Assembly (NCBI RefSeq): GCF_013122565.1 | Contig: NZ_CP053258.1 | Origin: Escherichia coli | GTDB lineage: Bacteria; Pseudomonadota; Gammaproteobacteria; Enterobacterales; Enterobacteriaceae | Reading direction: 5' to 3' (one strand) | DNA length: 64,000 nt | In this document: positions 4,516-56,094 of the stretch, one piece after another | Layout: each line of letters opens with the position of its first letter | Numbering within the stretch: position 1 is the first letter of the stretch | The notes under the pieces: model-generated | Database searches by the model: none | What the model was told of the DNA's origin: nothing | The model's input: only the letters and a program-made list of their open reading frames with translations | Made by a program: the position numbers and the translations under genes

Positions 4516-7500
4516 ATGACTCCAGTAAAAGTGTGGCAAGAGCGCGTTGAGATCCCGACCTATGAAACCGGGCCGCAGGATATACATCCCATGTTCCTCG
4601 AAAATCGCGTTTATCAGGGATCGTCCGGCGCGGTTTATCCCTACGGCGTGACCGATACGCTGAGCGAGCAGAAAACCCTGAAATCCTGGCAGGCGGTGTG
4701 GCTGGAAAACGACTACATCAAAGTGATGATCCTGCCGGAATTGGGCGGTCGGGTGCATCGAGCATGGGATAAAGTGAAACAGCGCGATTTTGTCTATCAC
4801 AATGAAGTCATTAAACCTGCGCTGGTGGGGCTGCTGGGACCGTGGATCTCCGGCGGGATTGAGTTTAACTGGCCGCAACACCATCGCCCGACCACCTTTA
4901 TGCCCGTTGATTTCACCCTCGAAGCCCATGAAGACGGCGCACAGACGGTGTGGGTAGGCGAAACGGAGCCGATGCATGGTTTACAGGTGATGACAGGTTT
5001 CACCCTGCGCCCTGACCGGGCGGCGCTGGAAATCGCCAGCCGCGTCTATAACGGCAACGCCACGCCGCGTCATTTCTTGTGGTGGGCCAACCCGGCAGTG
5101 AAAGGGGGGGAAGGGCATCAGAGCGTCTTCCCGCCGGATGTAACGGCGGTGTTTGATCACGGCAAACGGGCCGTCTCCGCTTTCCCTATCGCCACCGGCA
5201 CTTACTACAAAGTGGACTACTCCGCTGGAGTGGACATTTCTCGCTATAAAAATGTGCCTGTTCCAACCTCATATATGGCCGAAAAATCGCAGTACGATTT
5301 TGTCGGCGCGTGGTGTCACGATGAAGATGGCGGTTTGCTGCACGTTGCCAACCACCATATTGCGCCAGGTAAAAAACAGTGGAGTTGGGGACACAGTGAA
5401 TTTGGCCAGGCGTGGGATAAGAGCCTAACTGATAATAACGGCCCGTATATCGAACTGATGACCGGTATTTTTGCCGATAACCAGCCCGATTTTACCTGGC
5501 TTGATGCTTACGAAGAGAAGCGTTTTGAGCAGTATTTCCTGCCTTATCATTCTTTGGGCATGGTGCAAAATGCCTCCCGCGATGCGGTGATAAAACTCCA
5601 GCGTAGTGAGCGGGGGATTGAGTGGGGGCTGTATGCCATCTCTCCGTTGAACGGATACCGCCTGGCGATCCGCGAAATCGGCAAATGCAACGCGTTACTT
5701 GATGATGCCGTGGCACTGATGCCTGCGACCGCCATCCAGGGCGTGTTGCACGGTATCAATCCTGAAAGGCTGACCATTGAGCTCTCTGATGCCGACGGCA
5801 ATATTGTACTGAGTTATCAGGAACATCAGCCGCAAGAGTTGCCGTTGCCGGACGTCGCCAAAGCGCCACTGGCAGCACAAGACATTACCAGTACAGATGA
5901 AGCCTGGTTTATCGGTCAGCATCTGGAGCAATATCATCACGCGAGCCGTTCACCGTTCGATTACTACCTGCGCGGCGTGGCGCTGGATCCGCTGGATTAC
6001 CGCTGTAACCTGGCGCTGGCGATGCTGGAGTATAACCGCGCAGATTTCCCGCAAGCGGTGGCGTATGCCACTCAGGCTCTGAAACGCGCACATGCGCTGA
6101 ACAAAAATCCGCAGTGCGGACAGGCGAGTTTGATTCGCGCCAGTGCTTACGAACGTCAGGGACAATATCAACAAGCCGAAGAGGATTTCTGGCGTGCGGT
6201 CTGGAGCGGCAACAGTAAAGCCGGAGGCTATTATGGTCTGGCACGACTGGCGGCGCGTAATGGTAACTTCGACGCGGGTCTGGATTTTTGCCAACAAAGT
6301 CTTCGCGCCTGCCCAACCAATCAGGAAGTGCTTTGCCTGCATAATCTGCTGCTGGTGTTAAGTGGTCGTCAGGACAACGCGCGTTTGCAGCGCGAGAAAC
6401 TGCTGCGCGATTATCCGCTGAACGCCACTCTGTGGTGGCTGAACTGGTTCGATGGTCGTAGCGAATCAGCTCTCGCGCAGTGGCGCGGTCTGTGTCAGGG
6501 ACGCGACGTTAACGCCCTGATGACCGCCGGGCAACTGATTAACTGGGGAATGCCCACCCTGGCGGCAGAGATGCTGAACGCACTGGACTGCCAGCGCACG
6601 CTGCCGCTTTACCTGCAAGCCAGCTTGCTGCCGAAAGCCGAACGTGGCGAACTGGTCGCAAAAGCCATTGATGTCTTCCCGCAGTTTGTCCGTTTCCCGA
6701 ATACGCTGGAAGAAGTGGCGGCGCTGGAGAGTATTGAAGAGTGCTGGTTTGCTCGCCATTTACTGGCCTGCTTCTACTACAACAAACGTAGCTACAACAA
6801 AGCCATTGCCTTATGGCAACGTTGCGAAGAGATGTCGCCGGAGTTTGCCGACGGCTGGCGCGGGTTAGCGATCCATGCGTGGAATAAGCAACACGATTAT
6901 GAGCTGGCCGCGCGTTATCTTGATAATGCTTATCAGCTTGCGCCGCAGGATGCACGTCTGCTTTTCGAACGGGATTTGCTTGATAAGTTAAGTGGAGCCA
7001 CACCGGAGAAACGACTGGCGCGTCTGGAAAATAATCTGGAAATTGCGCTGAAACGCGACGACATGACCGCAGAACTGCTCAATTTGTGGCATCTCACGGG
7101 GCAGGCAGACAAAGCGGCGGACATTCTCGCCACGCGCAAATTCCACCCGTGGGAAGGCGGGGAAGGGAAGGTCACCAGTCAGTTTATCCTCAACCAGTTA
7201 TTACGCGCCTGGCAGCATCTTGATGCCAGACAGCCGCAGCAGGCCAGCGAACTGCTTCATGCCGCGCTGCATTATCCGGAGAATTTAAGCGAAGGCCGTT
7301 TACCGGGGCAAACTGATAACGACATCTGGTTCTGGCAGGCGATATGCGCCAACGCGCAGGGCGATGAAACTGAAGCGACGCGTTGTTTACGTCTGGCGGC
7401 GACTGGCGATCGCACCATTAACATTCACAGTTATTACAACGATCAGCCGGTTGATTATCTCTTCTGGCAAGGAATGGCGCTGCGACTGCTGGGCGAACAA

Positions 7501-7797
7501 CAAATCGCACAGCAACTGTTTAGTGAAATGAAACAGTGGGCGCAAGAGATGGCGAAAACCAGTATCGAAGCGGATTTCTTTGCCGTCTCGCAACCTGACT
7601 TGTTGTCGCTGTATGGCGATTTACAACAGCAGCATAAAGAAAAATGCCTGATGGTGGCGATGCTGGCGTCCGCGGGACTCGGGGAGGTTGCGCAATATGA
7701 GTCTGCTCGCGCTGAATTGACGGCGATTAATCCGGCCTGGCCGAAAGCGGCATTATTCACCACTGTGATGCCTTTTATTTTTAACTACGTTCACTAA
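4516..7797 (+). CDS. yphG: Large TPR-repeat protein of unknown function
   Basis: 1124-aa ORF (track start is TTG at 4423); first ATG at 4516 with nearby GAGGG; C-terminal two-thirds is rich in TPR-like helical repeats; divergent from yphH. Confidence 0.8.
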   Translation: MTPVKVWQERVEIPTYETGPQDIHPMFLENRVYQGSSGAVYPYGVTDTLSEQKTLKSWQAVWLENDYIKVMILPELGGRVHRAWDKVKQRDFVYHNEVIKPALVGLLGPWISGGIEFNWPQHHRPTTFMPVDFTLEAHEDGAQTVWVGETEPMHGLQVMTGFTLRPDRAALEIASRVYNGNATPRHFLWWANPAVKGGEGHQSVFPPDVTAVFDHGKRAVSAFPIATGTYYKVDYSAGVDISRYKNVPVPTSYMAEKSQYDFVGAWCHDEDGGLLHVANHHIAPGKKQWSWGHSEFGQAWDKSLTDNNGPYIELMTGIFADNQPDFTWLDAYEEKRFEQYFLPYHSLGMVQNASRDAVIKLQRSERGIEWGLYAISPLNGYRLAIREIGKCNALLDDAVALMPATAIQGVLHGINPERLTIELSDADGNIVLSYQEHQPQELPLPDVAKAPLAAQDITSTDEAWFIGQHLEQYHHASRSPFDYYLRGVALDPLDYRCNLALAMLEYNRADFPQAVAYATQALKRAHALNKNPQCGQASLIRASAYERQGQYQQAEEDFWRAVWSGNSKAGGYYGLARLAARNGNFDAGLDFCQQSLRACPTNQEVLCLHNLLLVLSGRQDNARLQREKLLRDYPLNATLWWLNWFDGRSESALAQWRGLCQGRDVNALMTAGQLINWGMPTLAAEMLNALDCQRTLPLYLQASLLPKAERGELVAKAIDVFPQFVRFPNTLEEVAALESIEECWFARHLLACFYYNKRSYNKAIALWQRCEEMSPEFADGWRGLAIHAWNKQHDYELAARYLDNAYQLAPQDARLLFERDLLDKLSGATPEKRLARLENNLEIALKRDDMTAELLNLWHLTGQADKAADILATRKFHPWEGGEGKVTSQFILNQLLRAWQHLDARQPQQASELLHAALHYPENLSEGRLPGQTDNDIWFWQAICANAQGDETEATRCLRLAATGDRTINIHSYYNDQPVDYLFWQGMALRLLGEQQIAQQLFSEMKQWAQEMAKTSIEADFFAVSQPDLLSLYGDLQQQHKEKCLMVAMLASAGLGEVAQYESARAELTAINPAWPKAALFTTVMPFIFNYVH

Positions 7798-7893
7798 ACC
7801 CTATTAACTGTAATATTTGAGCGGCACGCGCTGCCGCTCATCACAAAATAATTAGAATAAGCCGTTGTTAATAAAAACCCTACAGGAGGCTCT

Positions 7894-8877
7894 ATGCCTA
7901 AAAAAATGAGAACAACCCGTAATCTATTATTAATGGCTACGCTATTAGGTAGCGCTTTATTTGCCAGGGCTGCGGATAAAGAAATGACCATTGGCGCAAT
8001 ATACCTTGATACTCAGGGATATTACGCTGGAGTGCGTCAGGGCGTTCAGGATGCGGCAAAAGATTCTTCAGTACAGGTACAGTTAATTGAAACTAACGCC
8101 CAGGGTGATATTTCGAAAGAAAGTACCTTTGTTGATACCCTCGTGGCGCGTAATGTCGATGCTATTATTTTATCGGCAGTGTCTGAAAATGGCAGTAGCC
8201 GTACCGTTCGTCGCGCCAGTGAAGCGGGTATTCCGGTGATTTGCTACAACACCTGTATTAATCAAAAGGGTGTCGATAAATATGTCTCGGCATATCTGGT
8301 GGGTGACCCGCTGGAATTTGGTAAAAAACTGGGTAACGCTGCCGCCGATTATTTTATTGCCAACAAAATTGACCAGCCGAAAATTGCCGTCATCAATTGC
8401 GAAGCCTTTGAAGTTTGTGTGCAACGACGTAAAGGGTTTGAAGAAGTATTAAAAGCCCGCGTTCCCGGCGCGCAAATTGTCGCTAATCAGGAAGGGACTG
8501 TTTTAGATAAAGCGATTTCCGTTGGTGAAAAACTAATTATCTCTACGCCGGATCTCAACGCCATTATGGGAGAATCGGGCGGTGCGACACTCGGCGCGGT
8601 AAAAGCGGTACGTAATCAAAATCAGGCAGGAAAAATTGCCGTTTTCGGTTCGGATATGACAACCGAAATTGCTCAGGAGCTGGAAAACAATCAGGTGCTG
8701 AAAGCGGTAGTGGATATTTCCGGTAAGAAAATGGGCAATGCTGTTTTCGCGCAAACATTGAAGGTTATCAATAAACAAGCCGACGGTGAAAAAGTGATTC
8801 AGGTGCCAATCGATCTCTATACCAAAACGGAAGACGGTAAACAGTGGCTGGCAACGCACGTTGATGGTCTGCCCTAA
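7894..8877 (+). CDS. yphF: Periplasmic sugar-binding protein of ABC transporter
   Basis: Signal peptide MPKKMRTTRNLLLMATLLGSALFARAADKE, periplasmic binding protein fold type I-like sequence; AGGAGG Shine-Dalgarno at 7885-7890. Confidence 0.88.
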   Translation: MPKKMRTTRNLLLMATLLGSALFARAADKEMTIGAIYLDTQGYYAGVRQGVQDAAKDSSVQVQLIETNAQGDISKESTFVDTLVARNVDAIILSAVSENGSSRTVRRASEAGIPVICYNTCINQKGVDKYVSAYLVGDPLEFGKKLGNAAADYFIANKIDQPKIAVINCEAFEVCVQRRKGFEEVLKARVPGAQIVANQEGTVLDKAISVGEKLIISTPDLNAIMGESGGATLGAVKAVRNQNQAGKIAVFGSDMTTEIAQELENNQVLKAVVDISGKKMGNAVFAQTLKVINKQADGEKVIQVPIDLYTKTEDGKQWLATHVDGLP

Positions 8878-32173: not shown

Positions 32174-32950
32174 ATGTCCGAAACAAAAAACGAACTTGAA
32201 GACCTGCTGGAAAAAGCAGCAACCGAACCGGCTCACCGCCCGGCCTTTTTCCGTACTCTACTGGAATCCACCGTCTGGGTGCCGGGTACGGCGGCGCAGG
32301 GCGAGGCAGTAGTTGAAGATAGCGCGCTTGATTTACAGCACTGGGAAAAAGAAGATGGCACCAGCGTCATTCCTTTTTTTACCTCGTTAGAAGCACTTCA
32401 ACAGGCGGTTGAAGACGAACAGGCATTTGTCGTAATGCCCGTTCGCACATTGTTTGAGATGACCCTTGGTGAAACGCTCTTCCTTAATGCCAAACTGCCA
32501 ACCGGTAAAGAGTTTATGCCGCGTGAAATCAGTTTGTTGATTGGTGAAGAAGGGAGTCCGCTGAGTAGTCAGGAAGTACTGGAAGGCGGTGAATCGCTGA
32601 TATTATCGGAAGTCGCAGAGCCGCCAGCACAAATGATTGATTCACTCACCACCTTATTTAAAACCATTAAGCCAGTGAAGCGTGCTTTTATTTGTTCAAT
32701 TAAAGAGAACGAAGAGGCACAGCCTAATTTACTTATTGGCATTGAAGCCGATGGTGATATCGAAGAAATTATTCAGGCGGCGGGAAGTGTAGCGACCGAT
32801 ACATTACCTGGCGATGAACCAATCGATATTTGTCAGGTGAAAAAAGGGGAAAAAGGAATTAGCCACTTTATTACCGAACATATTGCGCCATTCTATGAAC
32901 GTCGCTGGGGTGGTTTTTTGCGTGACTTTAAACAGAATCGGATAATCTAA
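32174..32950 (+). CDS. sseB: Protein SseB (enhances serine sensitivity)
   Basis: MSETKNELEDLLEKAATEPAHRPAFFRTLLEST...; 258 aa from ATG 32174; adjacent to pepB as in K-12. Confidence 0.88.
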   Translation: MSETKNELEDLLEKAATEPAHRPAFFRTLLESTVWVPGTAAQGEAVVEDSALDLQHWEKEDGTSVIPFFTSLEALQQAVEDEQAFVVMPVRTLFEMTLGETLFLNAKLPTGKEFMPREISLLIGEEGSPLSSQEVLEGGESLILSEVAEPPAQMIDSLTTLFKTIKPVKRAFICSIKENEEAQPNLLIGIEADGDIEEIIQAAGSVATDTLPGDEPIDICQVKKGEKGISHFITEHIAPFYERRWGGFLRDFKQNRII

Positions 32951-32953
32951 AAT

Positions 32954-32975
32954 ATGCCGCCCTAAAGGGCGGCAT
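32954..32975. terminator. Stem-loop after sseB, also positioned as terminator of the minus-strand toxin transcript
   Basis: atgccgccc taaa gggcggcat hairpin; on the minus strand it is followed by AUUUUA. Confidence 0.5.
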
Positions 32976-32981
32976 TCTGGC

Positions 32982-33119
32982 TTACCTGCTGTTCTGAAGG
33001 TTGTTAACCACCAGTAAATTGTCGCCGGAGAGACTCCGGTTATTATTTACCTCGGTTAACAGCGCACCAGAAACAATAAGTACGATACAGAAGCACCGTA
33101 TCTTCATTGTGCGGTCCAT
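32982..33119 (-). CDS. Small hydrophobic peptide, candidate type I toxin (TimP/RyfA-encoded-like), copy 1
   Basis: Minus-strand translation MDRTMKIRCFCIVLIVSGALLTEVNNNRSLSGDNLLVVNNLQNSR (internal Met gives 41 aa from 33107); single predicted TM-like segment; lies at the ryfA locus between sseB and sseA; below the 60-aa cutoff of the ORF track. Confidence 0.45.
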   Translation of the reverse strand: MDRTMKIRCFCIVLIVSGALLTEVNNNRSLSGDNLLVVNNLQNSR

Positions 33120-33330
33120 GCGAAGACCGCATCACGACAGCACCACTGGCGATATTGCCGCGATAGCAAGCGCTGAGACGCGCTTGCTCTAAAGGTCGCG
33201 GAACATCCTTTCCTTAAGCCAGCGCCCGCTTGCGAGACGGCGGAAAGGGCCGCAGTGGATAATACACTAACAGAACAATAATAACTCTCTTTTGCTTGAC
33301 AAAAAGAGAGTTACTGGCGAGTATTGTCTC

Positions 33331-33427
33331 CGCTGAGACGCGCTTGCATTACTACGGTAATACAACCTGCTGGAAAGGCCGCGAACCAAACCGGCAACAA
33401 ATAGCCGCCTGATTTTGGCGGTTTTTT
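33331..33427 (+). ncRNA. Divergent small RNA (TimR/RyfB-like antitoxin candidate), copy 1
   Basis: Sigma70-like promoter TTGACA (33296-33301), 17-bp spacer, GAGTAT (33319-33324); terminator ccgcc...ggcgg plus T6 at 33405-33427; 5-prime 17 nt (33331-33347) are the exact complement of the toxin mRNA leader segment at 33171-33187. Confidence 0.45.
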
Positions 33428-33552
33428 GTTGTTTAAAGAAAGTGAAATTACACGTTTAAGTAATATCTTTTATTGGTTAGTATTTTTAATATTAAGCGAA
33501 AATTGTTTATATTTGTCTGAATTCGGACTAATAAGTCAGGTTATTTTAATAT

Positions 33553-33628
33553 CGAACATATTGCGCCATTCTATGAATGTCGCTGGGGTGGGCTTTTGCG
33601 TGACTTTAAACAGAATCGGATAATCTAA
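33553..33628 (+). pseudogene. Duplicated 3-prime fragment of sseB (unit 2)
   Basis: Near-identical copy of sseB 32875-32950 including the stop codon and followed by a copy of the terminator hairpin; no upstream sseB sequence. Confidence 0.8.
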
Positions 33629-33659
33629 AATATGCCGCCCCAAAGGGCGGCATTCGGGC

Positions 33660-33797
33660 TTACTTGCTGCTCTGACGGTTGTTAACCACCAGTAAATTGT
33701 CGCCGGAGAGACTCCGGTTATTATTTACCTCGGTTAACAGCGCACCAGAAACAATAAGTACGATACAGAAGCACCGTATCTTCATTGTGCGGTCCAT
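33660..33797 (-). CDS. Small hydrophobic peptide, candidate type I toxin, copy 2
   Basis: Same ORF as copy 1 with identical hydrophobic core; C-terminal tail differs (…VVNNRQSSK). Confidence 0.45.
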   Translation of the reverse strand: MDRTMKIRCFCIVLIVSGALLTEVNNNRSLSGDNLLVVNNRQSSK

Positions 33798-34008
33798 GCG
33801 AAGACCGCATCACGACAGCACCACTGGCGATATTGCCGCGATAGCAAGCGCTGTGAAACACCTGCATTTACGGCCACGGAACATCCTTTCCTAAAGCCAG
33901 CGCCCGTTTGCGAGACGGCGGAAAGGGCCGGTGTCGATAATACGCTAAATAAACAATAATTACTCTCTTTTGCTTGACAAAAAGAGAGTTGCTGGCGAAT
34001 ATTGCTCT

Positions 34009-34109
34009 GCTGTGAAGCACCTGCGTTGCTCATGCAACACAAGTCAATCTGCTGGAGAGGCCGCGAACCAAACCGGCAACAAATAACCGCCTGATCTTGG
34101 CGGTTTTTT
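34009..34109 (+). ncRNA. Divergent small RNA (TimR/RyfB-like), copy 2
   Basis: TTGACA (33974-33979), 17-bp spacer, GAATAT (33997-34002); terminator at 34087-34109; 5-prime gctgtgaagcacctgc matches mRNA-leader segment 33850-33865 (two positions form G-U pairs). Confidence 0.45.
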
Positions 34110-34234
34110 GTTGCTTAAAGAAAGTGAATTTACATGTTTAAGTAATATCTTTTACCGGTTAGTATTTTTAATATTGAGCGGGATTTGTTTATATTTGTCT
34201 GAATTCGGACTAATAAGCCAGGTCATTTTAATAT

Positions 34235-34310
34235 CGAACATATTGCGCCATTCTATGAACGTCGCTGGGGTGGTTTTTTGCGTGACTTTAAACAGAATCG
34301 GATAATCTAA
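34235..34310 (+). pseudogene. Duplicated 3-prime fragment of sseB (unit 3)
   Basis: Identical to sseB 32875-32950 including stop; followed by terminator hairpin copy. Confidence 0.8.
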
Positions 34311-34341
34311 AATATGCCGCCCCAAAGGGCGGCATTCGGGC

Positions 34342-34479
34342 TTACCTGCTGTTCTGAAGGTTGTTAACCACCAATAAATTGTTGCCGGAGAGACTCCGGT
34401 TATTATTTACCTCAGTTAACAGCGCACCAGAAACAATAAGTACGATACAGAAGCACCGTATCTTCATTGTGCGGTCCAT
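34342..34479 (-). CDS. Small hydrophobic peptide, candidate type I toxin, copy 3
   Basis: Same ORF; relative to copy 1 two synonymous changes and one D-to-N change (…SLSGNNLLVV…). Confidence 0.45.
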   Translation of the reverse strand: MDRTMKIRCFCIVLIVSGALLTEVNNNRSLSGNNLLVVNNLQNSR

Positions 34480-34693
34480 GCGAAGACCGCATCACGACAG
34501 CACCACTGGCGATATTGCCGCGATAGCAAGCACTGTGGGGTGCCTGTATTTACGGTCATGGAACATCCTTTCCTAAAGCCAGTGCCCGTTTGCGAGACGG
34601 CGAAAAGGGCCGTTAAGAATAATACTCTCATGTTTGAATAATTACTCTGTTTATTATCTTGACATGGCCAGGCATAAAAGAGAGTATTTCAAC

Positions 34694-50807: not shown

Positions 50808-52280
50808 ATGGTACCTGTGGTCGCGCTTGTCGGGCGCCCTAACGTAGGAAAATCCACGTTATTTAACCGTCTAACTCGCACCCGAGATGCGCTGGTTGCG
50901 GATTTCCCGGGTCTGACTCGTGACCGTAAGTACGGTCGTGCGGAAATTGAAGGCCGTGAGTTTATCTGTATTGATACCGGCGGGATTGATGGTACAGAAG
51001 ACGGTGTAGAAACCCGCATGGCGGAACAGTCGCTGCTGGCGATTGAAGAAGCGGACGTCGTACTGTTTATGGTGGATGCGCGCGCGGGCCTGATGCCGGC
51101 AGATGAAGCGATTGCCAAACATCTGCGCTCCCGTGAAAAACCGACCTTCCTGGTGGCAAACAAAACTGACGGTCTGGATCCCGATCAGGCAGTGGTTGAT
51201 TTCTACTCGCTTGGTTTAGGTGAAATCTACCCGATCGCCGCGTCTCACGGTCGTGGCGTATTAAGTCTGCTGGAGCATGTGCTACTGCCGTGGATGGAAG
51301 ATCTCGCACCGCAAGAGGAAGTCGACGAAGACGCTGAATACTGGGCGCAATTTGAAGCGGAAGAGAACGGCGAAGAAGAAGAGGAAGACGACTTCGACCC
51401 GCAAAGTCTGCCGATCAAACTGGCGATTGTGGGTCGTCCGAACGTAGGTAAGTCTACACTCACTAACCGTATTCTTGGTGAAGAGCGCGTTGTTGTTTAT
51501 GACATGCCTGGTACGACGCGTGACAGTATCTACATTCCAATGGAACGCGATGGACGTGAGTATGTGCTCATTGACACCGCTGGCGTACGTAAACGCGGTA
51601 AAATCACCGATGCTGTAGAGAAATTCTCCGTAATCAAAACGTTGCAGGCCATTGAAGATGCCAACGTGGTGATGTTGGTGATTGATGCGCGCGAAGGTAT
51701 TTCCGATCAGGATCTCTCCCTGCTGGGCTTTATTCTCAATAGTGGGCGCTCACTTGTCATTGTGGTGAATAAGTGGGATGGCCTGAGCCAGGAAGTGAAA
51801 GAGCAGGTGAAAGAAACGCTGGACTTCCGTCTGGGCTTTATCGATTTTGCTCGTGTGCACTTTATCTCTGCCTTGCACGGCAGTGGTGTTGGTAACTTGT
51901 TTGAATCAGTACGTGAAGCGTATGACAGCTCCACCCGTCGTGTGGGGACCTCTATGCTGACGCGCATCATGACGATGGCTGTTGAAGATCACCAACCGCC
52001 GCTGGTACGCGGTCGTCGTGTGAAGCTGAAATATGCACACGCCGGTGGTTATAATCCGCCGATTGTGGTGATTCACGGTAACCAGGTGAAAGACCTGCCT
52101 GATTCCTACAAGCGTTACTTGATGAACTACTTCCGCAAATCGCTGGACGTAATGGGATCGCCGATTCGTATTCAGTTCAAAGAAGGGGAAAACCCGTATG
52201 CGAACAAGCGTAACACCCTGACGCCAACCCAGATGCGTAAACGTAAGCGCCTGATGAAGCACATCAAGAAAAGTAAGTAA
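50808..52280 (+). CDS. der: Ribosome assembly GTPase Der (EngA), tandem GTPase domains
   Basis: Two G1 motifs GRPNVGKST (N-terminal and about residue 213), acidic linker, KH-like C-terminus; start at internal ATG 50808 giving 490 aa. Confidence 0.96.
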
Positions 52281-52339
52281 TTACTTATCTGGTTTCCCTT
52301 TTCTCATGGAGAGGGAAACCGAATAACACGCGAGGAGTA

Positions 52340-52558
52340 TTGATGGAATTCAATTGCCCAACCTGCCATAAACCTCTCGAACATCACGGCGAGACGGCTC
52401 ATTGCGTAACTTGCGACAAAGATTTCACCATCCAGGCACTTTGCCCTGACTGCCATCAGCCGCTACAGGTGTTAAAGGCTTGTGGCGCTGTGGACTATTT
52501 CTGCCAACATGGCCACGGATTAATTTCTAAAAAACGCGTTGAGTTTATTATTGCTTAA
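52340..52558 (+). CDS. yfgJ: Small zinc-ribbon protein YfgJ
   Basis: 72 aa with two CxxC…HxxxC pairs (CPTCHKPLEHHGETAHCVTC and CPDCHQPLQVLKACGAVDYFCQHGH); GAGGAG Shine-Dalgarno at 52331-52336. Confidence 0.85.
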   Translation: MMEFNCPTCHKPLEHHGETAHCVTCDKDFTIQALCPDCHQPLQVLKACGAVDYFCQHGHGLISKKRVEFIIA

Positions 52559-52767
52559 TATCATCTGAATGTATGGTTTTATCATTTGTATTTAATATAT
52601 AAATGATAAAGCCATCTCTTATTGGTTAAATCACTAGTACATGTGAGTGAAATCATTTTGATAAATTTTTAGGAATATATTTAGTTTTTCTGACGTGCCT
52701 TCCTGAATGTTCTGGCATAGAATATTAGAGCTTATTCATCAAATTATCATTGCCACAGGGAAAGTGC

Positions 52768-54942
52768 ATGCTGCGATGGAGTCGCTTTATAATGTTACTA
52801 TTTATCTCTGCTGCAACTCCTGCGGCAGAGATAAATAGTAAGCAAAATGAATCGTTACCTGATTTAGGCAGCCAGGCGGCTCAACAAGTAGAACAAACGG
52901 ATAAGGGTAAATCGTTAAAAGAGCGTGGAGCCGATTACGTCATCGATTCTGCTACGCAAGGGTTCGAAAACCTGACCCCCGAGGCGCTGGAATCTCAGGC
53001 CAGAAGCTATCTGCAAAGTCAAATCACCTCAACCGCGCAATCTTATATTGAAGAGACACTCTCTCCCTACGGTAAGGTCCGTTCGAATCTCTCTATTGGT
53101 CAAGGTGGCGATCTGGATGGTAGCTCCATCGATTATTTTGTTCCCTGGTATGATAATCAAACGACCGTTTATTTCAGTCAATTTTCTGCGCAACGAAAAG
53201 AGGACCGTACGATCGGGAATATCGGAATTGGAGCAAGACATAATTTCGATGAATGGCTTTTGGGTGGAAATATATTTTACGATTATGATTTCACCCGTGG
53301 GCATCGACGTTTAGGTTTGGGGACAGAGGCCTGGACCAATTATTTAAAATTTTCTGGCAACTATTATCATCCGCTCTCTGACTGGAAAGACTCTGAAGAT
53401 TTCGACTTTTATGAAGAGCGCCCTGCGCGCGGTTGGGATATTCGCGCTGAAGCCTGGTTACCTTCTTATCCGCAACTGGGGGGCAAAATTGTCTTCGAGC
53501 AATATTACGGTGATGAAGTCGCCCTTTTTGGTACGGATAATTTAGAGAAAGATCCCTATGCGGTGACGCTAGGACTGAATTATCAACCGGTACCGTTACT
53601 GACAGTTGGAACGGATTATAAAGCGGGGACAGGAGATAACAGCGATGTCAGCATTAATGCCACTCTTAATTATCAATTCGGCGTTCCGCTAAAAGATCAA
53701 CTCGACAGCAATAAAGTAAAAGCAGCCCACTCGTTGATGGGCAGTCGCCATGATTTTGTCGAGCGTAATAACTTTATCGTCCTGGAATATAAAGAGAAAG
53801 ACCCTCTGGATGTGACGTTGTGGCTGAAAGCGGATGCGACCAACGAGCACCCTGAGTGCGTCATTAAGGACACTCCAGAAGCGGCGATCGGGCTGGAAAA
53901 ATGTAAGTGGACCATTAACGCACTGATCAATCACCACTACAAAATTGTCGCTGCGTCATGGCAGGCGAAAAACAATGCCGCCCGCACGCTGGTGATGCCG
54001 GTCATCAAAGAAAATACCATCACTGAAGGCAACAACAACCACTGGAATCTGATACTGCCAGCCTGGCAGTACAGCTCTGACAAAGCCGAGCAGGAAAAAC
54101 TCAACACCTGGCGGGTACGGCTGGCGCTGGAAGATGAAAAGGGTAATCGGCAAAACTCCGGCCTGGTTGAGATCACCGTTCAGCAGGACCGTAAAATTGA
54201 GCTGACCGTCAATAACATTGCTGATGTGCCTGATGAGAATAACCACAGCCATGAAGCCAGCGCTCAGGCGGATGGCGTTGATGGTGTGGTCATGGACCTC
54301 GAGGTGACGGACAGTTTTGGCGATAACACGGACCGCAACGGTGATGCTCTGCCAGAAGATAATCTTGCACCGCAGCTCTACGACGCTCAGGACAAAAAAG
54401 TCACGCTAACCAATAAACCCTGCTCGACCGACAACCCCTGCGTGTTTATTGCCAAACAAGATAAAGAAAAGGGAACGGTAACCCTCTCCAGTACATTGCC
54501 AGGCGTTTTCCGCTGGAAAGCGAAAGCGGCTCCCTACGATGACAGTAACTATGTGGATGTCACGTTTATTGGATCTGATATCGGCGGGCTTAATGCTTTC
54601 ATTTACCGGCTTGGGGGAGCGAAGCCAGTCAATTTGATCGGCAATGATAAAGACCCCCTGCCGCTGGGCAACACGTACCGATTTGTGTTGTGGCGTGATG
54701 CCAACAAAGACGGCGTTTTTCAGCAGTCGGAAAAACTAACCGATGAAGAGATGACTCAGTACGACTACAAGTGGGAATTTACCGGCAAGAGCATCAATGG
54801 CGAAGTAGGTGCGCAGGCGAACACATCCAATGCAGACATTGTAATACCGGCGACCAACCGTGAAGCGGCGCAATCCTATGGTGCAAAAGTGGAAGATGGC
54901 TTGCAGGGTTACGGTTTACGCGTGCTGTACACCAAAAAATAA
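52768..54942 (+). CDS. sinH: Intimin/invasin-family outer membrane protein (inverse autotransporter), SinH-like
   Basis: Signal peptide MLRWSRFIMLLFISAATPAAE; central region aligns by eye with the invasin/intimin beta-barrel domain (…EAWTNYLKFSGNYYHP…ERPARGWDIRAEAWLPSYPQLGGKIVFEQYYGDEVALFG…RNNFIVLEYKE); ATG at 52768 (track ORF starts at upstream TTG). Confidence 0.8.
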   Translation: MLRWSRFIMLLFISAATPAAEINSKQNESLPDLGSQAAQQVEQTDKGKSLKERGADYVIDSATQGFENLTPEALESQARSYLQSQITSTAQSYIEETLSPYGKVRSNLSIGQGGDLDGSSIDYFVPWYDNQTTVYFSQFSAQRKEDRTIGNIGIGARHNFDEWLLGGNIFYDYDFTRGHRRLGLGTEAWTNYLKFSGNYYHPLSDWKDSEDFDFYEERPARGWDIRAEAWLPSYPQLGGKIVFEQYYGDEVALFGTDNLEKDPYAVTLGLNYQPVPLLTVGTDYKAGTGDNSDVSINATLNYQFGVPLKDQLDSNKVKAAHSLMGSRHDFVERNNFIVLEYKEKDPLDVTLWLKADATNEHPECVIKDTPEAAIGLEKCKWTINALINHHYKIVAASWQAKNNAARTLVMPVIKENTITEGNNNHWNLILPAWQYSSDKAEQEKLNTWRVRLALEDEKGNRQNSGLVEITVQQDRKIELTVNNIADVPDENNHSHEASAQADGVDGVVMDLEVTDSFGDNTDRNGDALPEDNLAPQLYDAQDKKVTLTNKPCSTDNPCVFIAKQDKEKGTVTLSSTLPGVFRWKAKAAPYDDSNYVDVTFIGSDIGGLNAFIYRLGGAKPVNLIGNDKDPLPLGNTYRFVLWRDANKDGVFQQSEKLTDEEMTQYDYKWEFTGKSINGEVGAQANTSNADIVIPATNREAAQSYGAKVEDGLQGYGLRVLYTKK

Positions 54943-54996: not shown

Positions 54997-55974
54997 ATGA
55001 AGCAGGACAAAAGACGCGGTCTGACCCGGATCGCATTGGCGCTGGCACTGGCTGGTTACTGCGTGACGCCCCTGGCGCTGGCGGAAGACAGCGCGTGGAT
55101 CGACAGCGGCGAGACCAATATTTTCCAGGGGACTATTCCGTGGCTCTACCCCGTTGATGAAGATGAGGTAACTGGCGCGGGTCGGGTGACGTTAACCTCT
55201 GACTATAAAGGTACTCGTCCGTCGGGAAGTACATCCGACAAGCGTATGTACTCTGGCGACAAATTAACGCTCAGTTGGGTGATTGGCGATACTGAAGGCG
55301 ACGTCGATCTTGGTACGGCGGGTAAAGATGCAAAAACCATCGACACCATCCGCTGGATGAGCTACAAGGACGCCCAGGGTGGCGATCCGAAAGAGCTGGC
55401 AACAAAGGTGACCACTTACACCCTTACCGATGCCGACCGTGGTCGTTATATCGGTATTGAAATTACCCCAACCACCCAGACGGGTACGCCATACGTTGGG
55501 ACTGCGCTGCATCTTTATGATGTTTCGAATGCTAACGGCGGGGGAAGCGATAAAGATAACGTTGATCCAGGACCGGTAGTTAACCAGAACCTGAAAGTCG
55601 CCATCTTTGTTAAAGACACCTCGACTAACCTCATTAACGGTAGTACGCCAATCCAGTTGGGCAAAACGTACGTCGCCAAACTGTACTCGGATGAGAACAA
55701 AAACGGTCAGTATGACGCAGGTACTGACGTTGATGTTACCGCCAATTACGACTTCCGTTGGGTTCTTTCTGACACCAGCGATCAGCTCGGTACGGGGGGC
55801 GGCATTGTTAACTCAAGCTTCGATAATCAAAACCTGGTCATCCCTGCGACCAACGACGAAGCCAGAACCAACCTTAACGGCCCTGCTCGTGATGGCAAAG
55901 ATGCCCTTGCGATCCCGACCAACGGCGATGGGGTTCAGGGTTACAAACTGCAGATTATCTACAAACACAAATAA
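54997..55974 (+). CDS. sinI: Secreted protein with SinH-like C-terminal domain, SinI-like
   Basis: Signal peptide MKQDKRRGLTRIALALALAGYCVTPLALA; C-terminus (…LVIPATNDEA…DGVQGYKLQIIYKHK) parallels the SinH C-terminus (…IVIPATNREA…DGLQGYGLRVLYTKK). Confidence 0.7.
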   Translation: MKQDKRRGLTRIALALALAGYCVTPLALAEDSAWIDSGETNIFQGTIPWLYPVDEDEVTGAGRVTLTSDYKGTRPSGSTSDKRMYSGDKLTLSWVIGDTEGDVDLGTAGKDAKTIDTIRWMSYKDAQGGDPKELATKVTTYTLTDADRGRYIGIEITPTTQTGTPYVGTALHLYDVSNANGGGSDKDNVDPGPVVNQNLKVAIFVKDTSTNLINGSTPIQLGKTYVAKLYSDENKNGQYDAGTDVDVTANYDFRWVLSDTSDQLGTGGGIVNSSFDNQNLVIPATNDEARTNLNGPARDGKDALAIPTNGDGVQGYKLQIIYKHK

Positions 55975-55983
55975 CACTTGCTC

Positions 55984-56011
55984 AACAGCATTCCCGCAAG
56001 GGAATGCTGTT
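55984..56011 (+). terminator. Terminator-like hairpin downstream of sinI
   Basis: 12-bp stem aacagcattccc / gggaatgctgtt with GCAA loop, followed by T-rich tccgcatatttt. Confidence 0.6.
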
Positions 56012-56015
56012 TCCG

Positions 56016-56050
56016 CATATTTTGCTTAATCCAGGATTAAGCAAAATATG
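56016..56050. promoter_or_regulatory. Perfect 35-bp palindrome upstream of ratA (candidate operator or attenuator)
   Basis: catattttgcttaatcc-a-ggattaagcaaaatatg: 17-bp arms with no mismatches, 45 bp upstream of the ratA ATG. Confidence 0.4.
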
Positions 56051-56094
56051 TTGATGCGGTAACCGTTCGTTAAATAACTGGTGGAGTTCTTTTC

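What the first reader, a model, noticed from the sequence alone, without database searches (positions are those of the whole stretch)
52559..52767. AT-rich regulatory region at the island boundary upstream of sinH
The ~210 bp between yfgJ and sinH is strongly AT-rich with runs such as atttgtatttaatatataaatgataaa, typical of silenced horizontally acquired promoters and in contrast to the GC-balanced core on the left.
Basis: inference. Interest (0 to 1): 0.3.

Follow-up and report, generated by a model that had tools for sequence, protein, structure and literature searches.

The report
AT-rich control region of sinH
The 209-base gap before the adhesin gene sinH is real, unusually AT-rich regulatory DNA that holds the end-of-transcript hairpin of the upstream gene and a weak, probably silenced sinH promoter; this is an ordinary kind of control region, with one conserved, unassigned protein-binding box.

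Summary
Window 52559-52767 is exactly the yfgJ-sinH intergenic region. Its GC is 29.2% against 52.3% for the window, making it the lowest-GC spot in 64 kb and well below every other intergenic gap (38-57%).

It is the loop and 3' arm of a 19-bp RNA stem-loop (52573-52615) that ends the der-yfgJ transcript.
- The region is not a composition step at an island edge. sinH, sinI and the giant adhesin gene are 48-53% GC.
- The yfgJ-sinH arrangement, with a 200-345 bp, 22-34% GC spacer, recurs in Escherichia, Salmonella, Citrobacter, Pseudocitrobacter and Superficieibacter.
- Divergence from K-12 begins at the der stop, so yfgJ belongs to the variable segment.

Comparison of 19 orthologous spacers shows a promoter architecture. 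A conserved box TTTTTAGGAATATATTTAG (52666-52684) sits 33-34 bp upstream of a conserved -10 hexamer TAnAAT (52718-52723). The -35 is weak, and a Shine-Dalgarno sequence and the ATG follow.

Published work shows the orthologue iatB is silent in culture and rises about 15-fold when LeuO, an H-NS antagonist, is overexpressed. H-NS occupancy itself could not be tested. The box best resembles an RcsAB box, but that is only a lead.

The parts
52343..52558 (+). yfgJ (zinc-ribbon protein, 71 aa); an allele linked to sinH-carrying genomes
   Evidence: ORF and RefSeq annotation of the homologue. It is only 68% DNA / 67% protein identical to K-12 yfgJ, while the adjacent der is 98.7% identical. It is next to sinH in all 17 other loci examined, including C. 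freundii, where der is not adjacent.
52559..52767 (.). yfgJ-sinH intergenic region, 209 bp, 29.2% GC
   Evidence: A homologous spacer is present once per chromosome in 1,615 of 5,426 complete E. coli genomes, with no annotated feature under it. Only 10 genomes are at least 90% identical to this allele.
52573..52615 (+). RNA stem-loop (19-bp stem, 5-nt loop) followed by CTCTTATT; terminator or 3'-end stabiliser of the der-yfgJ transcript.
   Evidence: Terminator-like hit and inverted repeat I1. The + strand RNA folds at -21.2 kcal/mol, z = -6.2, versus -12.8 for the - strand. In 5 alleles 95.8% of cells are paired, with 3 compensatory pairs and many U-G changes that work only on the + strand. 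Non-homologous stem-loops occupy the same place in most of the other genera.
52658..52667 (+). TTGATAAATT, a 9/10 match to the H-NS high-affinity motif TCGATAAATT
   Evidence: 7 one-mismatch sites in 64 kb against 3.9 expected; p about 0.06 within the spacer. It is not conserved in other alleles. Weak evidence.
52666..52684 (+). Conserved box TTTTTAGGAATATATTTAG, a presumed activator-binding site. On the - strand, 52670-52683 reads TAAATATATTCCTA, 12/14 identical to the RcsAB box TaAGaatatTCctA.
   Evidence: It is the most conserved block of the spacer across 19 sequences from 5 genera. In the 12-mer conservation test the summed distance was 11 against a null of 26.0 +/- 1.3. It occurs once per locus. 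The RcsAB match is the only site with 2 or fewer mismatches in 64 kb and was reached by 0-3 of 300 shuffles.
52695..52700 (+). Weak -35 candidate GTGCCT (3/6), 17 bp upstream of the -10
   Evidence: Inferred from the position of the -10. The strict sigma-70 scan found no promoter, and -35 candidates are equally weak in all orthologues.
52707..52725 (.). 7-N5-7 palindrome ATGTTCT-GGCAT-AGAATAT, resembling the LeuO core site (cas: ATATTCA-TACTG-TGAATAT); it overlaps the -10
   Evidence: LeuO core sites were recovered from the K-12 cas and leuO regions using the description in PMC6698644. The match is 11/14, p about 0.04 uncorrected. It is a lead only.
52718..52723 (+). -10 hexamer TAGAAT of the predicted sinH promoter
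   Evidence: T1, A2, A4 and T6 are invariant in 19 orthologues (TAGAAT, TACAAT, TATAAT, TAAAAT, TAAACT). In 16 sequences it lies 33-34 nt downstream of the box.
52729..52731 (+). Predicted transcription start (about 7 nt after the -10), giving a leader of about 38 nt
   Evidence: Inference only; no mapped start site could be retrieved.
52757..52761 (+). Shine-Dalgarno AGGGA, 6 nt before the ATG
   Evidence: Read from the sequence; ACAGGGA is conserved in most orthologues.
52768..54942 (+). sinH (intimin-like inverse autotransporter, 724 aa)
   Evidence: 92% identical to the representative of a cluster of 4,850 E. coli SinH sequences; Pfam PF11924.
54997..55974 (+). sinI-family gene, reported as co-transcribed with sinH
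   Evidence: co-transcription as stated in review PMC12525524.
56094..64000 (+). 5' part of a giant adhesion-domain (RatA-like) gene that runs off the window
   Evidence: Open frame from 56094 to the window end; annotated as an adhesion domain-containing protein in the homologous locus.

Best explanation
The spacer is a two-part control region.

Its first third encodes an AU-rich RNA stem-loop (52573-52615) that terminates or stabilises the der-yfgJ transcript.

The rest is the promoter region of the sinH-sinI adhesin operon:
- a conserved 19-bp box (52666-52684);
- 33 bp further on, a conserved -10 hexamer TAGAAT (52718-52723) with only a weak -35;
- a leader of about 38 nt with a Shine-Dalgarno sequence, then the ATG at 52768.

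Such a promoter should be intrinsically weak and dependent on a factor bound at the box. Because it lies in about 170 bp of 27-30% GC DNA, it is most likely coated and silenced by H-NS (and StpA) under laboratory conditions, and relieved by antagonists such as LeuO.

Shown: the composition, the stem-loop with covariation, and the conserved box, -10 hexamer and their spacing. Taken from the literature: silence of the orthologue in culture and its LeuO responsiveness. Inferred: H-NS occupancy, the transcription start, and the identity of the factor that binds the box.
For: - Composition.
- Stem-loop.
- Conservation: the yfgJ-sinH arrangement with a 200-218 bp spacer (345 bp in Salmonella, which has an extra REP-like insert) of 22-34% GC is found in five genera.
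- Box and -10: these are the only invariant blocks. The box is far beyond chance.
- Spacing: the distance from box to -10 is 33-34 nt in 16 of 18 orthologues.
- Promoter strength: the strict consensus scan finds no strong sigma-70 promoter, which fits activator dependence.
- Experiments on the orthologue: iatB protein is undetectable in wild-type SMS-3-5 under all culture conditions tried. All 12 up-mutants in a screen of about 30,000 Tn5 insertions drove leuO, and LeuO overexpression raised the transcript about 15-fold (PMC6714894).
- LeuO is an established H-NS antagonist (PMC6698644, PMC3950696).
- Weak motif support: an H-NS motif-like site and a LeuO core-like palindrome are present.
- SMS-3-5, the strain in which IatB stayed undetectable even with LeuO, has a degenerate box (AATAATGATATATTTAT).
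Against: - No H-NS binding or hns-mutant data for this locus were found.
- The transposon screen in PMC6714894 recovered no hns insertions.
- The strongly AT-rich patch is short (about 300 bp) and the flanking coding DNA has normal GC, unlike classic long H-NS-bound islands.
- The transcription start is unmapped, so the -10 assignment rests on conservation alone.
- Two orthologues (Superficieibacter 1612 and Escherichia sp. MOD1-EC7003) have the nearest TAAAAT/TAAACT at 22 nt and a second TAAAAT at 42-45 nt, so the spacing rule is not universal.
- The H-NS and LeuO motif matches are marginal (p 0.04-0.06 before correction for about 15 motifs tried).
Confidence: 0.6

Rival explanations
1. The conserved box is a binding site for RcsB paired with an auxiliary partner (an RcsA-, BglJ- or MatA-type heteromer). 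sinH would then be switched on by envelope-stress (Rcs) signalling, with one good RcsB half-site (TATTCCTA on the - strand) and a partner-specific half (TAAAT).
For: - The - strand at 52670-52683, TAAATATATTCCTA, matches the RcsAB consensus TaAGaatatTCctA at 12/14 positions. It is the only site with 2 or fewer mismatches in 64 kb, and 0/300 and 3/300 shuffles did as well.
- The same match occurs in Salmonella and LHM10-1, with 3 mismatches in 8 further orthologues.
- The variable positions of the box, T[A/C][G/A]GAAT, mirror the degenerate RcsB half-site wwTTCykA reported in PMC3950696.
- RcsB heteromer sites share only one half with the RcsB consensus, act at helically phased positions 52-79 bp upstream of the start, and often target H-NS-repressed genes.
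Against: - The highly conserved G of the left half-site is absent (A instead).
- The most invariant part of the box, ATTTA(G), is the part that does not fit RcsB.
- The match is poor in E. whittamii, Pseudocitrobacter, C. sp. MGH106 and SMS-3-5.
- About 15 motifs were tried, so the corrected significance is borderline.
- No paper links Rcs to sinH.
- The predicted centre, near -54, is 2-3 bp off the reported BglJ-RcsB phases of 57/67/77.
Confidence: 0.2
2. The AT-richness simply reflects what the spacer has to encode: an AU-rich terminator hairpin, an UP-element-like A/T tract and a promoter. There is no nucleoid-protein silencing, and low expression in culture reflects only the lack of an activating signal.
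For: - The lowest-GC stretch is the hairpin itself.
- The box region resembles the distal UP-element subsite at the expected -57 to -47 position (by eye, 9/11 for GAATATATTTA against AAAWWTWTTTT).
- AT-richness is maintained across genera alongside normal-GC genes, so it is functional sequence rather than foreign composition.
- No hns mutants were found in the published screen.
Against: - LeuO, whose best-known role is H-NS antagonism, activates the orthologue.
- Related intimin-like adhesin genes such as fdeC are reported to be H-NS-repressed (title cited).
- 29% GC is far below the other intergenic regions of the window, which also hold terminators and promoters.
- The automated UP-motif test was not significant.
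- The invariant G residues of the box are not explained by alpha-CTD binding.
Confidence: 0.2
3. The spacer is the scar or edge of a recently acquired foreign island, and its AT content is a remnant of donor base composition.
For: - sinH-sinI-ratA-like genes are absent from K-12, where xseA abuts yfgJ.
- Only about 30% of complete E. coli genomes carry the spacer.
- The literature calls the locus a horizontally acquired island (PMC12525524).
Against: - Island coding DNA is 48-53% GC.
- The same gene order at the same chromosomal site occurs in Salmonella, Citrobacter, Pseudocitrobacter, Superficieibacter and several Escherichia species. This favours an old locus with repeated loss and allelic exchange.
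- Divergence from K-12 starts at the der stop, not in this spacer.
- Functional blocks inside the spacer are conserved while the rest has diverged.
Confidence: 0.1
4. sinH has no promoter of its own. It is transcribed by read-through from der-yfgJ, and the conserved blocks are RNA elements of a long leader (for example CsrA-type GGA sites).
For: - All genes are co-oriented.
- The stem-loop has only a weak U-tract.
- GGA motifs occur in both the box and the Shine-Dalgarno region.
Against: - The pattern TA.A.T at a fixed distance from the box is what a -10 hexamer looks like.
- Several alleles have TAAGAAT, without GGA, in the box.
- A stable stem-loop follows yfgJ in most of the genera examined.
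- der is a housekeeping gene, whereas the sinH orthologue is silent in culture.
- There is no Rfam match.
Confidence: 0.07

Closest known systems
iatB (= sinH orthologue) promoter of E. coli SMS-3-5, activated by LeuO (Goh et al. 2019, PMC6714894)
   Same: It is the same locus and gene order (der-yfgJ-sinH-sinI-adhesin). The spacer is the same length (208 bp, 24% GC), with the same -10 region, LeuO-like palindrome and Shine-Dalgarno sequence. It is silent in culture and induced about 15-fold by LeuO overexpression.
   Different: The window carries a rare allele: the commoner E. coli alleles are about 74-80% identical to it in the spacer. It has an intact box TTAGGAATATATTTAG, where SMS-3-5 has AATAATGATATATTTAT. 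That paper mapped no promoter, start site, H-NS binding or box.
H-NS-repressed, LeuO / BglJ-RcsB-activated promoters of E. coli (cas, leuO, bgl, yidL; PMC6698644, PMC3950696)
   Same: These are AT-rich regulatory DNA with weak core promoters and an activator site upstream at a helically phased distance. Activation is partly by antagonising H-NS. The sinH spacer carries sequence resemblances to both the LeuO core palindrome and the RcsB half-site.
   Different: Binding of H-NS, LeuO or RcsB to the sinH region has not been shown. The motif matches are imperfect (11/14 and 12/14). The LeuO-like palindrome overlaps the -10 instead of lying upstream.
Promoters of other intimin/invasin-family adhesins under H-NS control (fdeC/eaeH in EHEC, cited in PMC6714894; Yersinia inv with RovA/H-NS, from my own knowledge)
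   Same: They belong to the same protein family, show cryptic expression in the laboratory, have AT-rich upstream DNA, and are controlled by a nucleoid silencer plus a dedicated or global counter-silencer.
   Different: They are at different loci with no sequence similarity in the upstream regions. The box found here is absent from the more distant inverse-autotransporter loci fetched (L020-L026).
Intrinsic (Rho-independent) terminators
   Same: The stem-loop lies immediately after a stop codon and is followed by a T-rich stretch. It is asymmetric between strands and shows compensatory changes.
   Different: The stem is unusually long and AU-rich (19 bp, 3 G-C pairs) and the U-tract is interrupted (CUCUUAUU). 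Termination efficiency is therefore uncertain, and it may act mainly as a 3'-end stabiliser.

Membership tests
H-NS (xenogeneic) silenced promoter | DNA markedly more AT-rich than the genome | tested here: met
   29.2% GC against 52.3%. It is the lowest-GC spot in 64 kb and below all other intergenic gaps.
H-NS (xenogeneic) silenced promoter | H-NS occupancy in vivo or in vitro | not testable with these tools
   No ChIP data could be retrieved: the Lucchini 2006 supplements are not held and the EAEC 042 table is truncated. The only sequence evidence is one 9/10 match to TCGATAAATT, which is not conserved.
H-NS (xenogeneic) silenced promoter | Derepression in hns mutants, or relief by a counter-silencer | not testable with these tools
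   From the literature only: LeuO overexpression raises the transcript of the orthologue about 15-fold (PMC6714894). No hns-mutant data were found, and no hns insertions came out of that paper's screen.
H-NS (xenogeneic) silenced promoter | Horizontally acquired DNA of foreign composition | tested here: not met
   sinH is 48.3% GC, sinI 52.7% and the giant gene 52.0%. The same arrangement is conserved in five genera.
Sigma-70 promoter | -10 hexamer with A at position 2 and T at position 6 | tested here: met
   TAGAAT at 52718-52723. T1, A2, A4 and T6 are invariant in 19 orthologues.
Sigma-70 promoter | -35 hexamer at 16-18 bp | tested here: not met
   The best candidate is GTGCCT (3/6). The consensus scan returned no promoter in 52200-52900. 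This is compatible with an activator-dependent promoter.
Sigma-70 promoter | Mapped transcription start | not testable with these tools
   No start-site table listing sinH could be retrieved.
Intrinsic terminator | Stable stem-loop followed by a U-tract on the transcribed strand | tested here: met
   It passes the permissive scan (19 pairs, 3 G-C, 5 T in 8). The + strand folds at -21.2 kcal/mol, z = -6.2. The U-tract is interrupted.
Intrinsic terminator | Structure conserved through compensatory change | tested here: met
   Five alleles show 95.8% paired cells and 3 pairs changed on both sides. The U-G changes are tolerated only on the + strand. Slid controls give 34-48% paired. The sample is small and the sequences are related.
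RcsAB / RcsB box (TaAGaatatTCctA) | Match to the 14-bp consensus, including the strongly conserved T1, A3, G4, T10, C11 and A14 | tested here: inconclusive
   The match is 12/14 overall and 5/6 of the strongly conserved bases, with G4 replaced by A. p is about 0.01 uncorrected, and about 15 motifs were tried.
RcsAB / RcsB box (TaAGaatatTCctA) | Match retained in orthologous promoters | tested here: inconclusive
   There are 2 mismatches in 3 sequences, 3 in 8, and 4-5 or a different location in 8.
RcsAB / RcsB box (TaAGaatatTCctA) | RcsB-dependent expression or binding | not testable with these tools
   No literature link was found.
[quoted passage not shown] | 7-N5-7 palindrome matching the cas/leuO core sites | tested here: inconclusive
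   ATGTTCT-GGCAT-AGAATAT at 52707-52725 matches 11/14, p about 0.04 uncorrected. Conservation outside Escherichia is partial.
Described RNA families (Rfam 15) | Covariance-model match at or near the gathering score | tested here: not met
   There are only sub-threshold chance hits to eukaryotic miRNA models on the hairpin.

The most novel reading that the evidence does not exclude
The 19-bp box (52666-52684) is conserved from Escherichia to Salmonella, Citrobacter, Pseudocitrobacter and Superficieibacter, and lies 33-34 bp upstream of the -10 in most of them. It may be the operator of an as yet unassigned activator of the SinH adhesin operon, possibly an RcsB heteromer that couples envelope-stress signalling to display of this adhesin and vaccine antigen. 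Natural box variants, such as the degenerate box of SMS-3-5 or the TTTAT variant of phylogroup B2 strains, might then explain strain differences in SinH expression.
Probability: 0.2. Interest if true: 0.5.

Novelty: new member of a known kind. Interest (0 to 1): 0.25.

Why it matters
SinH is an ExPEC and Salmonella colonisation factor and a current vaccine candidate (PMC9937491, PMC12525524). Yet its orthologue IatB was undetectable in laboratory culture of SMS-3-5 (PMC6714894), and the signals that turn it on are unknown.

Locating the likely promoter, a conserved activator box and the transcript-end hairpin of the upstream operon gives concrete targets for mutagenesis and reporter work. It also suggests that natural variation in the box could affect antigen expression between lineages.

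For genome annotation, the locus shows that an AT-rich spacer next to an accessory gene need not mark recently acquired foreign DNA. As a biological phenomenon it is ordinary: a silenced, activator-dependent adhesin promoter.

Tried and rejected
- **Rfam.** A search of 52000-53200 found nothing meaningful.
- **Strict sigma-70 scan.** No hit.
- **Sigma-54, sigma-E and extended -10 readings.** Checked by eye around TGGCATAGAAT and GGAATAT and rejected on spacing or missing GC/TG dinucleotides.
- **Motif tests.** Fur, PhoP, IHF, CpxR, Lrp, SlyA, ArcA, PmrA, the GAD box and the UP element were not better than shuffles; CRP was marginal (p 0.07).
- **CsrA-type RNA reading of the box.** Rejected because several alleles lack GGA.
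- **Phase variation.** There is no GATC site in the spacer and no long inverted repeats bracketing the promoter.
- **Small ORFs in the spacer.** Only 21-24-aa reverse-strand ORFs and a 43-aa out-of-frame ORF, none conserved in position.
- **Other copies of the box.** None in the window or in any fetched locus.
- **Literature dead ends.**
  - No paper links sinH with H-NS or RcsB.
  - The Lucchini 2006 supplements are not held.
  - Kröger 2012 is not held.
  - The D23580 supplements lack sinH.
  - The EAEC 042 hns RNA-seq table is stored truncated, well before the 2.89-Mb locus.
  - The LeuO paper's supplement with site sequences is not held, so the core sites were recovered from the K-12 sequence instead.
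- **Salmonella locus.** The genome-contig scan did not return Salmonella. The Salmonella locus was obtained through a protein search and contig look-up.

Full report

Yes.
- The yfgJ stop codon ends at 52558 and the sinH ATG is at 52768. The RefSeq annotation of the closest complete genome, E. coli LHM10-1, gives the same gene ends. The finding's coordinates, 52559-52767, are therefore exactly the 209-bp intergenic region.
- Its GC content is 29.2%, against 52.3% for the window.
- Only 0.14% of all 209-nt windows are as low, and the global minimum of the 64 kb (25.8%) lies here.
- A crude gene model leaves 18 other gaps of at least 80 bp, with 37.6-56.9% GC. This spacer is an outlier even among intergenic DNA.
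- The only other low-GC spot (33.3-34.3 kb) is a tandem ryfA/IS128 small-RNA array.

**2. Genomic setting**

The window is E. coli: der is 98.7-99.4% identical to K-12 and other E. coli. The gene order is bamB-der-yfgJ-sinH-sinI, followed by a giant adhesion-domain gene that runs off the window.

The boundary with K-12 has two different positions.
- In K-12, xseA converges on yfgJ and overlaps its stop codon. By gene content, everything to the right of the yfgJ stop is accessory.
- By sequence, divergence from K-12 begins at the der stop codon. The der-yfgJ spacer is 55% identical and yfgJ itself 68% at the DNA level (67% protein), with the N-terminal half differing.
- yfgJ therefore belongs to the variable segment.
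- In Citrobacter freundii the yfgJ-sinH pair is not even next to der.

The allele in the window is rare.
- A homologous spacer is present once per chromosome in 1,615 of 5,426 complete E. coli genomes.
- Only 10 of these are at least 90% identical; the rest are 74-80% identical.
- No feature is annotated under it in any record inspected.

**3. Is it an island edge of foreign composition?**

No.
- sinH is 48.3% GC, sinI 52.7% and the giant gene 52.0%.
- A scan of one genome per species, plus two contig look-ups, recovered yfgJ-sinH neighbours in several taxa. These were E. whittamii, E. albertii, other Escherichia lineages, Salmonella enterica, C. freundii, Citrobacter sp. MGH106, three Pseudocitrobacter and two Superficieibacter.
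- In every case the spacer is 200-218 bp, except Salmonella, and 22-34% GC. In Salmonella a GC-rich REP-like insert after yfgJ lengthens it to 345 bp.
- The AT trough is thus a conserved property of this control region beside genes of normal composition. It is not a remnant of donor DNA.

**4. Anatomy, first third: a transcript-end hairpin**

- Positions 52573-52615 form a 19-bp inverted repeat with a 5-nt loop, followed by CTCTTATT.
- As + strand RNA it folds at -21.2 kcal/mol, z = -6.2, with 0 of 200 shuffles as stable. The - strand gives only -12.8 kcal/mol, because several pairs are G-U.
- Across five E. coli alleles, 95.8% of cells pair. Three pairs changed on both sides, and the many one-sided changes are U-A to U-G, which preserve pairing only in + strand RNA. 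Slid controls pair in 34-48% of cells.
- Most of the other genera have a different but equally placed stem-loop just after the yfgJ stop.
- This is best read as the terminator, or 3'-end stabiliser, of the der-yfgJ transcript.

**5. Anatomy, remaining two thirds: the sinH promoter region**

Alignments of 16 and then 19 orthologous spacers show that most of the sequence has diverged beyond recognition between genera, apart from two blocks.

- **(a) The box.**
  - The box TTTTTAGGAATATATTTAG lies at 52666-52684. The pattern across sequences is TT[A/C][G/A]GAAT..ATTTAG, with ATTTA invariant.
  - In a 12-mer test against ten distant spacers, the box scored a summed minimum Hamming distance of 11-18. 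The best 12-mer in shuffled spacers scored 26.0 +/- 1.3, and never below 23 in 100 trials.
  - It occurs once per locus and nowhere else in the window.
- **(b) The -10 hexamer.**
  - TAGAAT lies at 52718-52723. Variants in other sequences are TACAAT, TATAAT, TAAAAT and TAAACT.
  - T1, A2, A4 and T6 are invariant, which is the signature of a sigma-70 -10 element.

The distance from the end of the box to this hexamer is 33 or 34 nt in 16 of 18 orthologues. Two related sequences (Superficieibacter 1612 and Escherichia sp. MOD1-EC7003) have a TAAAAT/TAAACT at 22 nt and a second TAAAAT at 42-45 nt.

The -35 position holds only 3/6 matches in all sequences, and a strict consensus scan reports no promoter.

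I therefore infer the following:
- a weak, activator-dependent promoter;
- a start near 52730;
- a leader of about 38 nt;
- a Shine-Dalgarno AGGGA at 52757-52761;
- the ATG at 52768.

The start site is an inference. I could not retrieve any mapped start for sinH.

**6. What binds the box?**

I compared the spacer with about 15 published consensus motifs, using shuffles of the spacer as a control.

- **RcsAB box.**
  - Only this motif stood out. The consensus is TaAGaatatTCctA, as quoted in PMC3950696.
  - The - strand at 52670-52683 reads TAAATATATTCCTA, a 12/14 match.
  - It is the only site with 2 or fewer mismatches in the 64 kb, and 0/300 and 3/300 shuffles did as well.
  - The variable positions of the box mirror the degenerate RcsB half-site wwTTCykA.
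  - RcsB heteromer sites are known to share only one half with the RcsB consensus, and to act at phased positions upstream of often H-NS-repressed promoters.
- **Points against the RcsAB reading.**
  - The conserved G of the other half-site is missing.
  - The most invariant part of the box (ATTTAG) is the non-RcsB half.
  - Eight orthologues match poorly.
  - After correcting for the number of motifs tried, the significance is borderline.
  - No paper links Rcs to sinH.
  - I treat this as a lead, with a probability of about 0.2.
- **LeuO core-like palindrome.**
  - ATGTTCT-N5-AGAATAT at 52707-52725 matches 11/14 against the cas and leuO core sites. I recovered those sites from the K-12 sequence following PMC6698644.
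  - It overlaps the -10, with p about 0.04 uncorrected.
- **H-NS motif-like site.**
  - TTGATAAATT at 52658-52667 is a 9/10 match, but it is not conserved between alleles.
  - Both the LeuO-like and H-NS-like matches are weak.

**7. Silencing**

The literature supports a cryptic, counter-silenced promoter.
- Goh et al. (PMC6714894) studied iatB, the sinH orthologue of E. coli SMS-3-5, which lies at the same locus.
- The protein was undetectable in wild type under all culture conditions tried.
- In a chromosomal iatB::lacZ strain, all 12 up-mutants among about 30,000 Tn5 insertions drove leuO.
- Plasmid-borne leuO raised the transcript about 15-fold, yet the protein remained undetectable.
- LeuO is an established H-NS antagonist.
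- Together with 170 bp of 27-30% GC DNA over and upstream of the core promoter, this makes H-NS/StpA silencing the most likely mechanism.

H-NS binding itself remains untested.
- No ChIP or hns-mutant data for this locus could be retrieved.
- The published screen yielded no hns insertions.
- The strongly AT-rich patch is short.

One further detail: SMS-3-5 has a degenerate box (AATAATGATATATTTAT). This might contribute to the failure to detect IatB there, but that is speculation.

**8. Verdict**

The general idea, a regulatory and probably silenced promoter region, is reasonable and partly backed by published work on the orthologue.

Three corrections apply.
- The quoted AT run is a transcript-end hairpin.
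- The region is not a compositional island boundary.
- The AT-richness is conserved regulatory sequence in an old, widely shared locus.

The kind of element is well known. What may be new is the conserved box, its fixed spacing to the -10 and the covarying hairpin, which I did not find described. Interest is modest.

Noticed in passing
window 32949-34613 (- strand): Three tandem copies of the ryfA RNA (each with a 45-aa TimP-like small toxin ORF, MDRTMKIRCFCIVLIVSGALL...) are interleaved with two IS128 RNAs between sseB and sseA. E. coli SMS-3-5 has a single timP there in a gap of about 500 bp. This array accounts for the other low-GC spot in the window.
   Followed up: partly
window 52285-52326: A 15-bp inverted repeat (TTATCTGGTTTCCCT / AGGGAAACCGAATAA) lies in the der-yfgJ spacer right after the der stop. 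K-12 has a different hairpin at the same place (CCATTCCCTCT...AGAGGGAATGG). Structure rather than sequence seems to be kept.
   Followed up: no
window 52548-52558 and 52619-52629: An 11-nt imperfect direct repeat (TTATTGCTTAA / TTATTGGTTAA) brackets the 52573-52615 hairpin. It could be chance, or a duplication left by insertion of a small palindromic element. It is only partly kept in other alleles.
   Followed up: no
window 55975-56093: A GC-rich hairpin followed by T residues (CAACAGCATTCCCGCAAGGGAATGCTGTTTCC) lies just after the sinI stop and before the giant adhesin gene. It is a likely terminator, which suggests that sinH-sinI and the giant gene are separate transcription units.
   Followed up: no
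L028 (Citrobacter freundii contig) 989-2500: Here yfgJ-sinH-sinI-adhesin is preceded by an MFS transporter gene and a GFO/IDH/MocA oxidoreductase gene rather than by der. Either yfgJ travels with the sinH module, or there is an extra insertion between der and yfgJ.
   Followed up: no
L027 (Salmonella enterica contig) 2156-2290: The Salmonella spacer is 345 bp because of a GC-rich, REP-like palindromic insert (GCCGACGT...GCCGGATAAG-type) right after yfgJ. The box, the 33-nt spacing and a consensus TATAAT are intact downstream.
   Followed up: partly
L001 (E. coli LHM10-1) 6489-8663: In the closest complete genome, sinH is annotated as a pseudogene with an internal stop. The window's copy is an intact 724-aa frame.
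   Followed up: no
L030 (E. coli SMS-3-5) 5440-5470, - strand: The strain used for the published LeuO experiments has a degenerate version of the conserved box (AATAATGATATATTTAT instead of TTAAGAATATATTTAG).
   Followed up: partly
Salmonella LT2 sinH coding region (literature): A sigma-54 ChIP study lists an intragenic sigma-54 binding site, TGGTACGGATCTTGCCAT, inside sinH (STM2517) (PMC3844500). It is unrelated to the spacer studied here.
   Followed up: no
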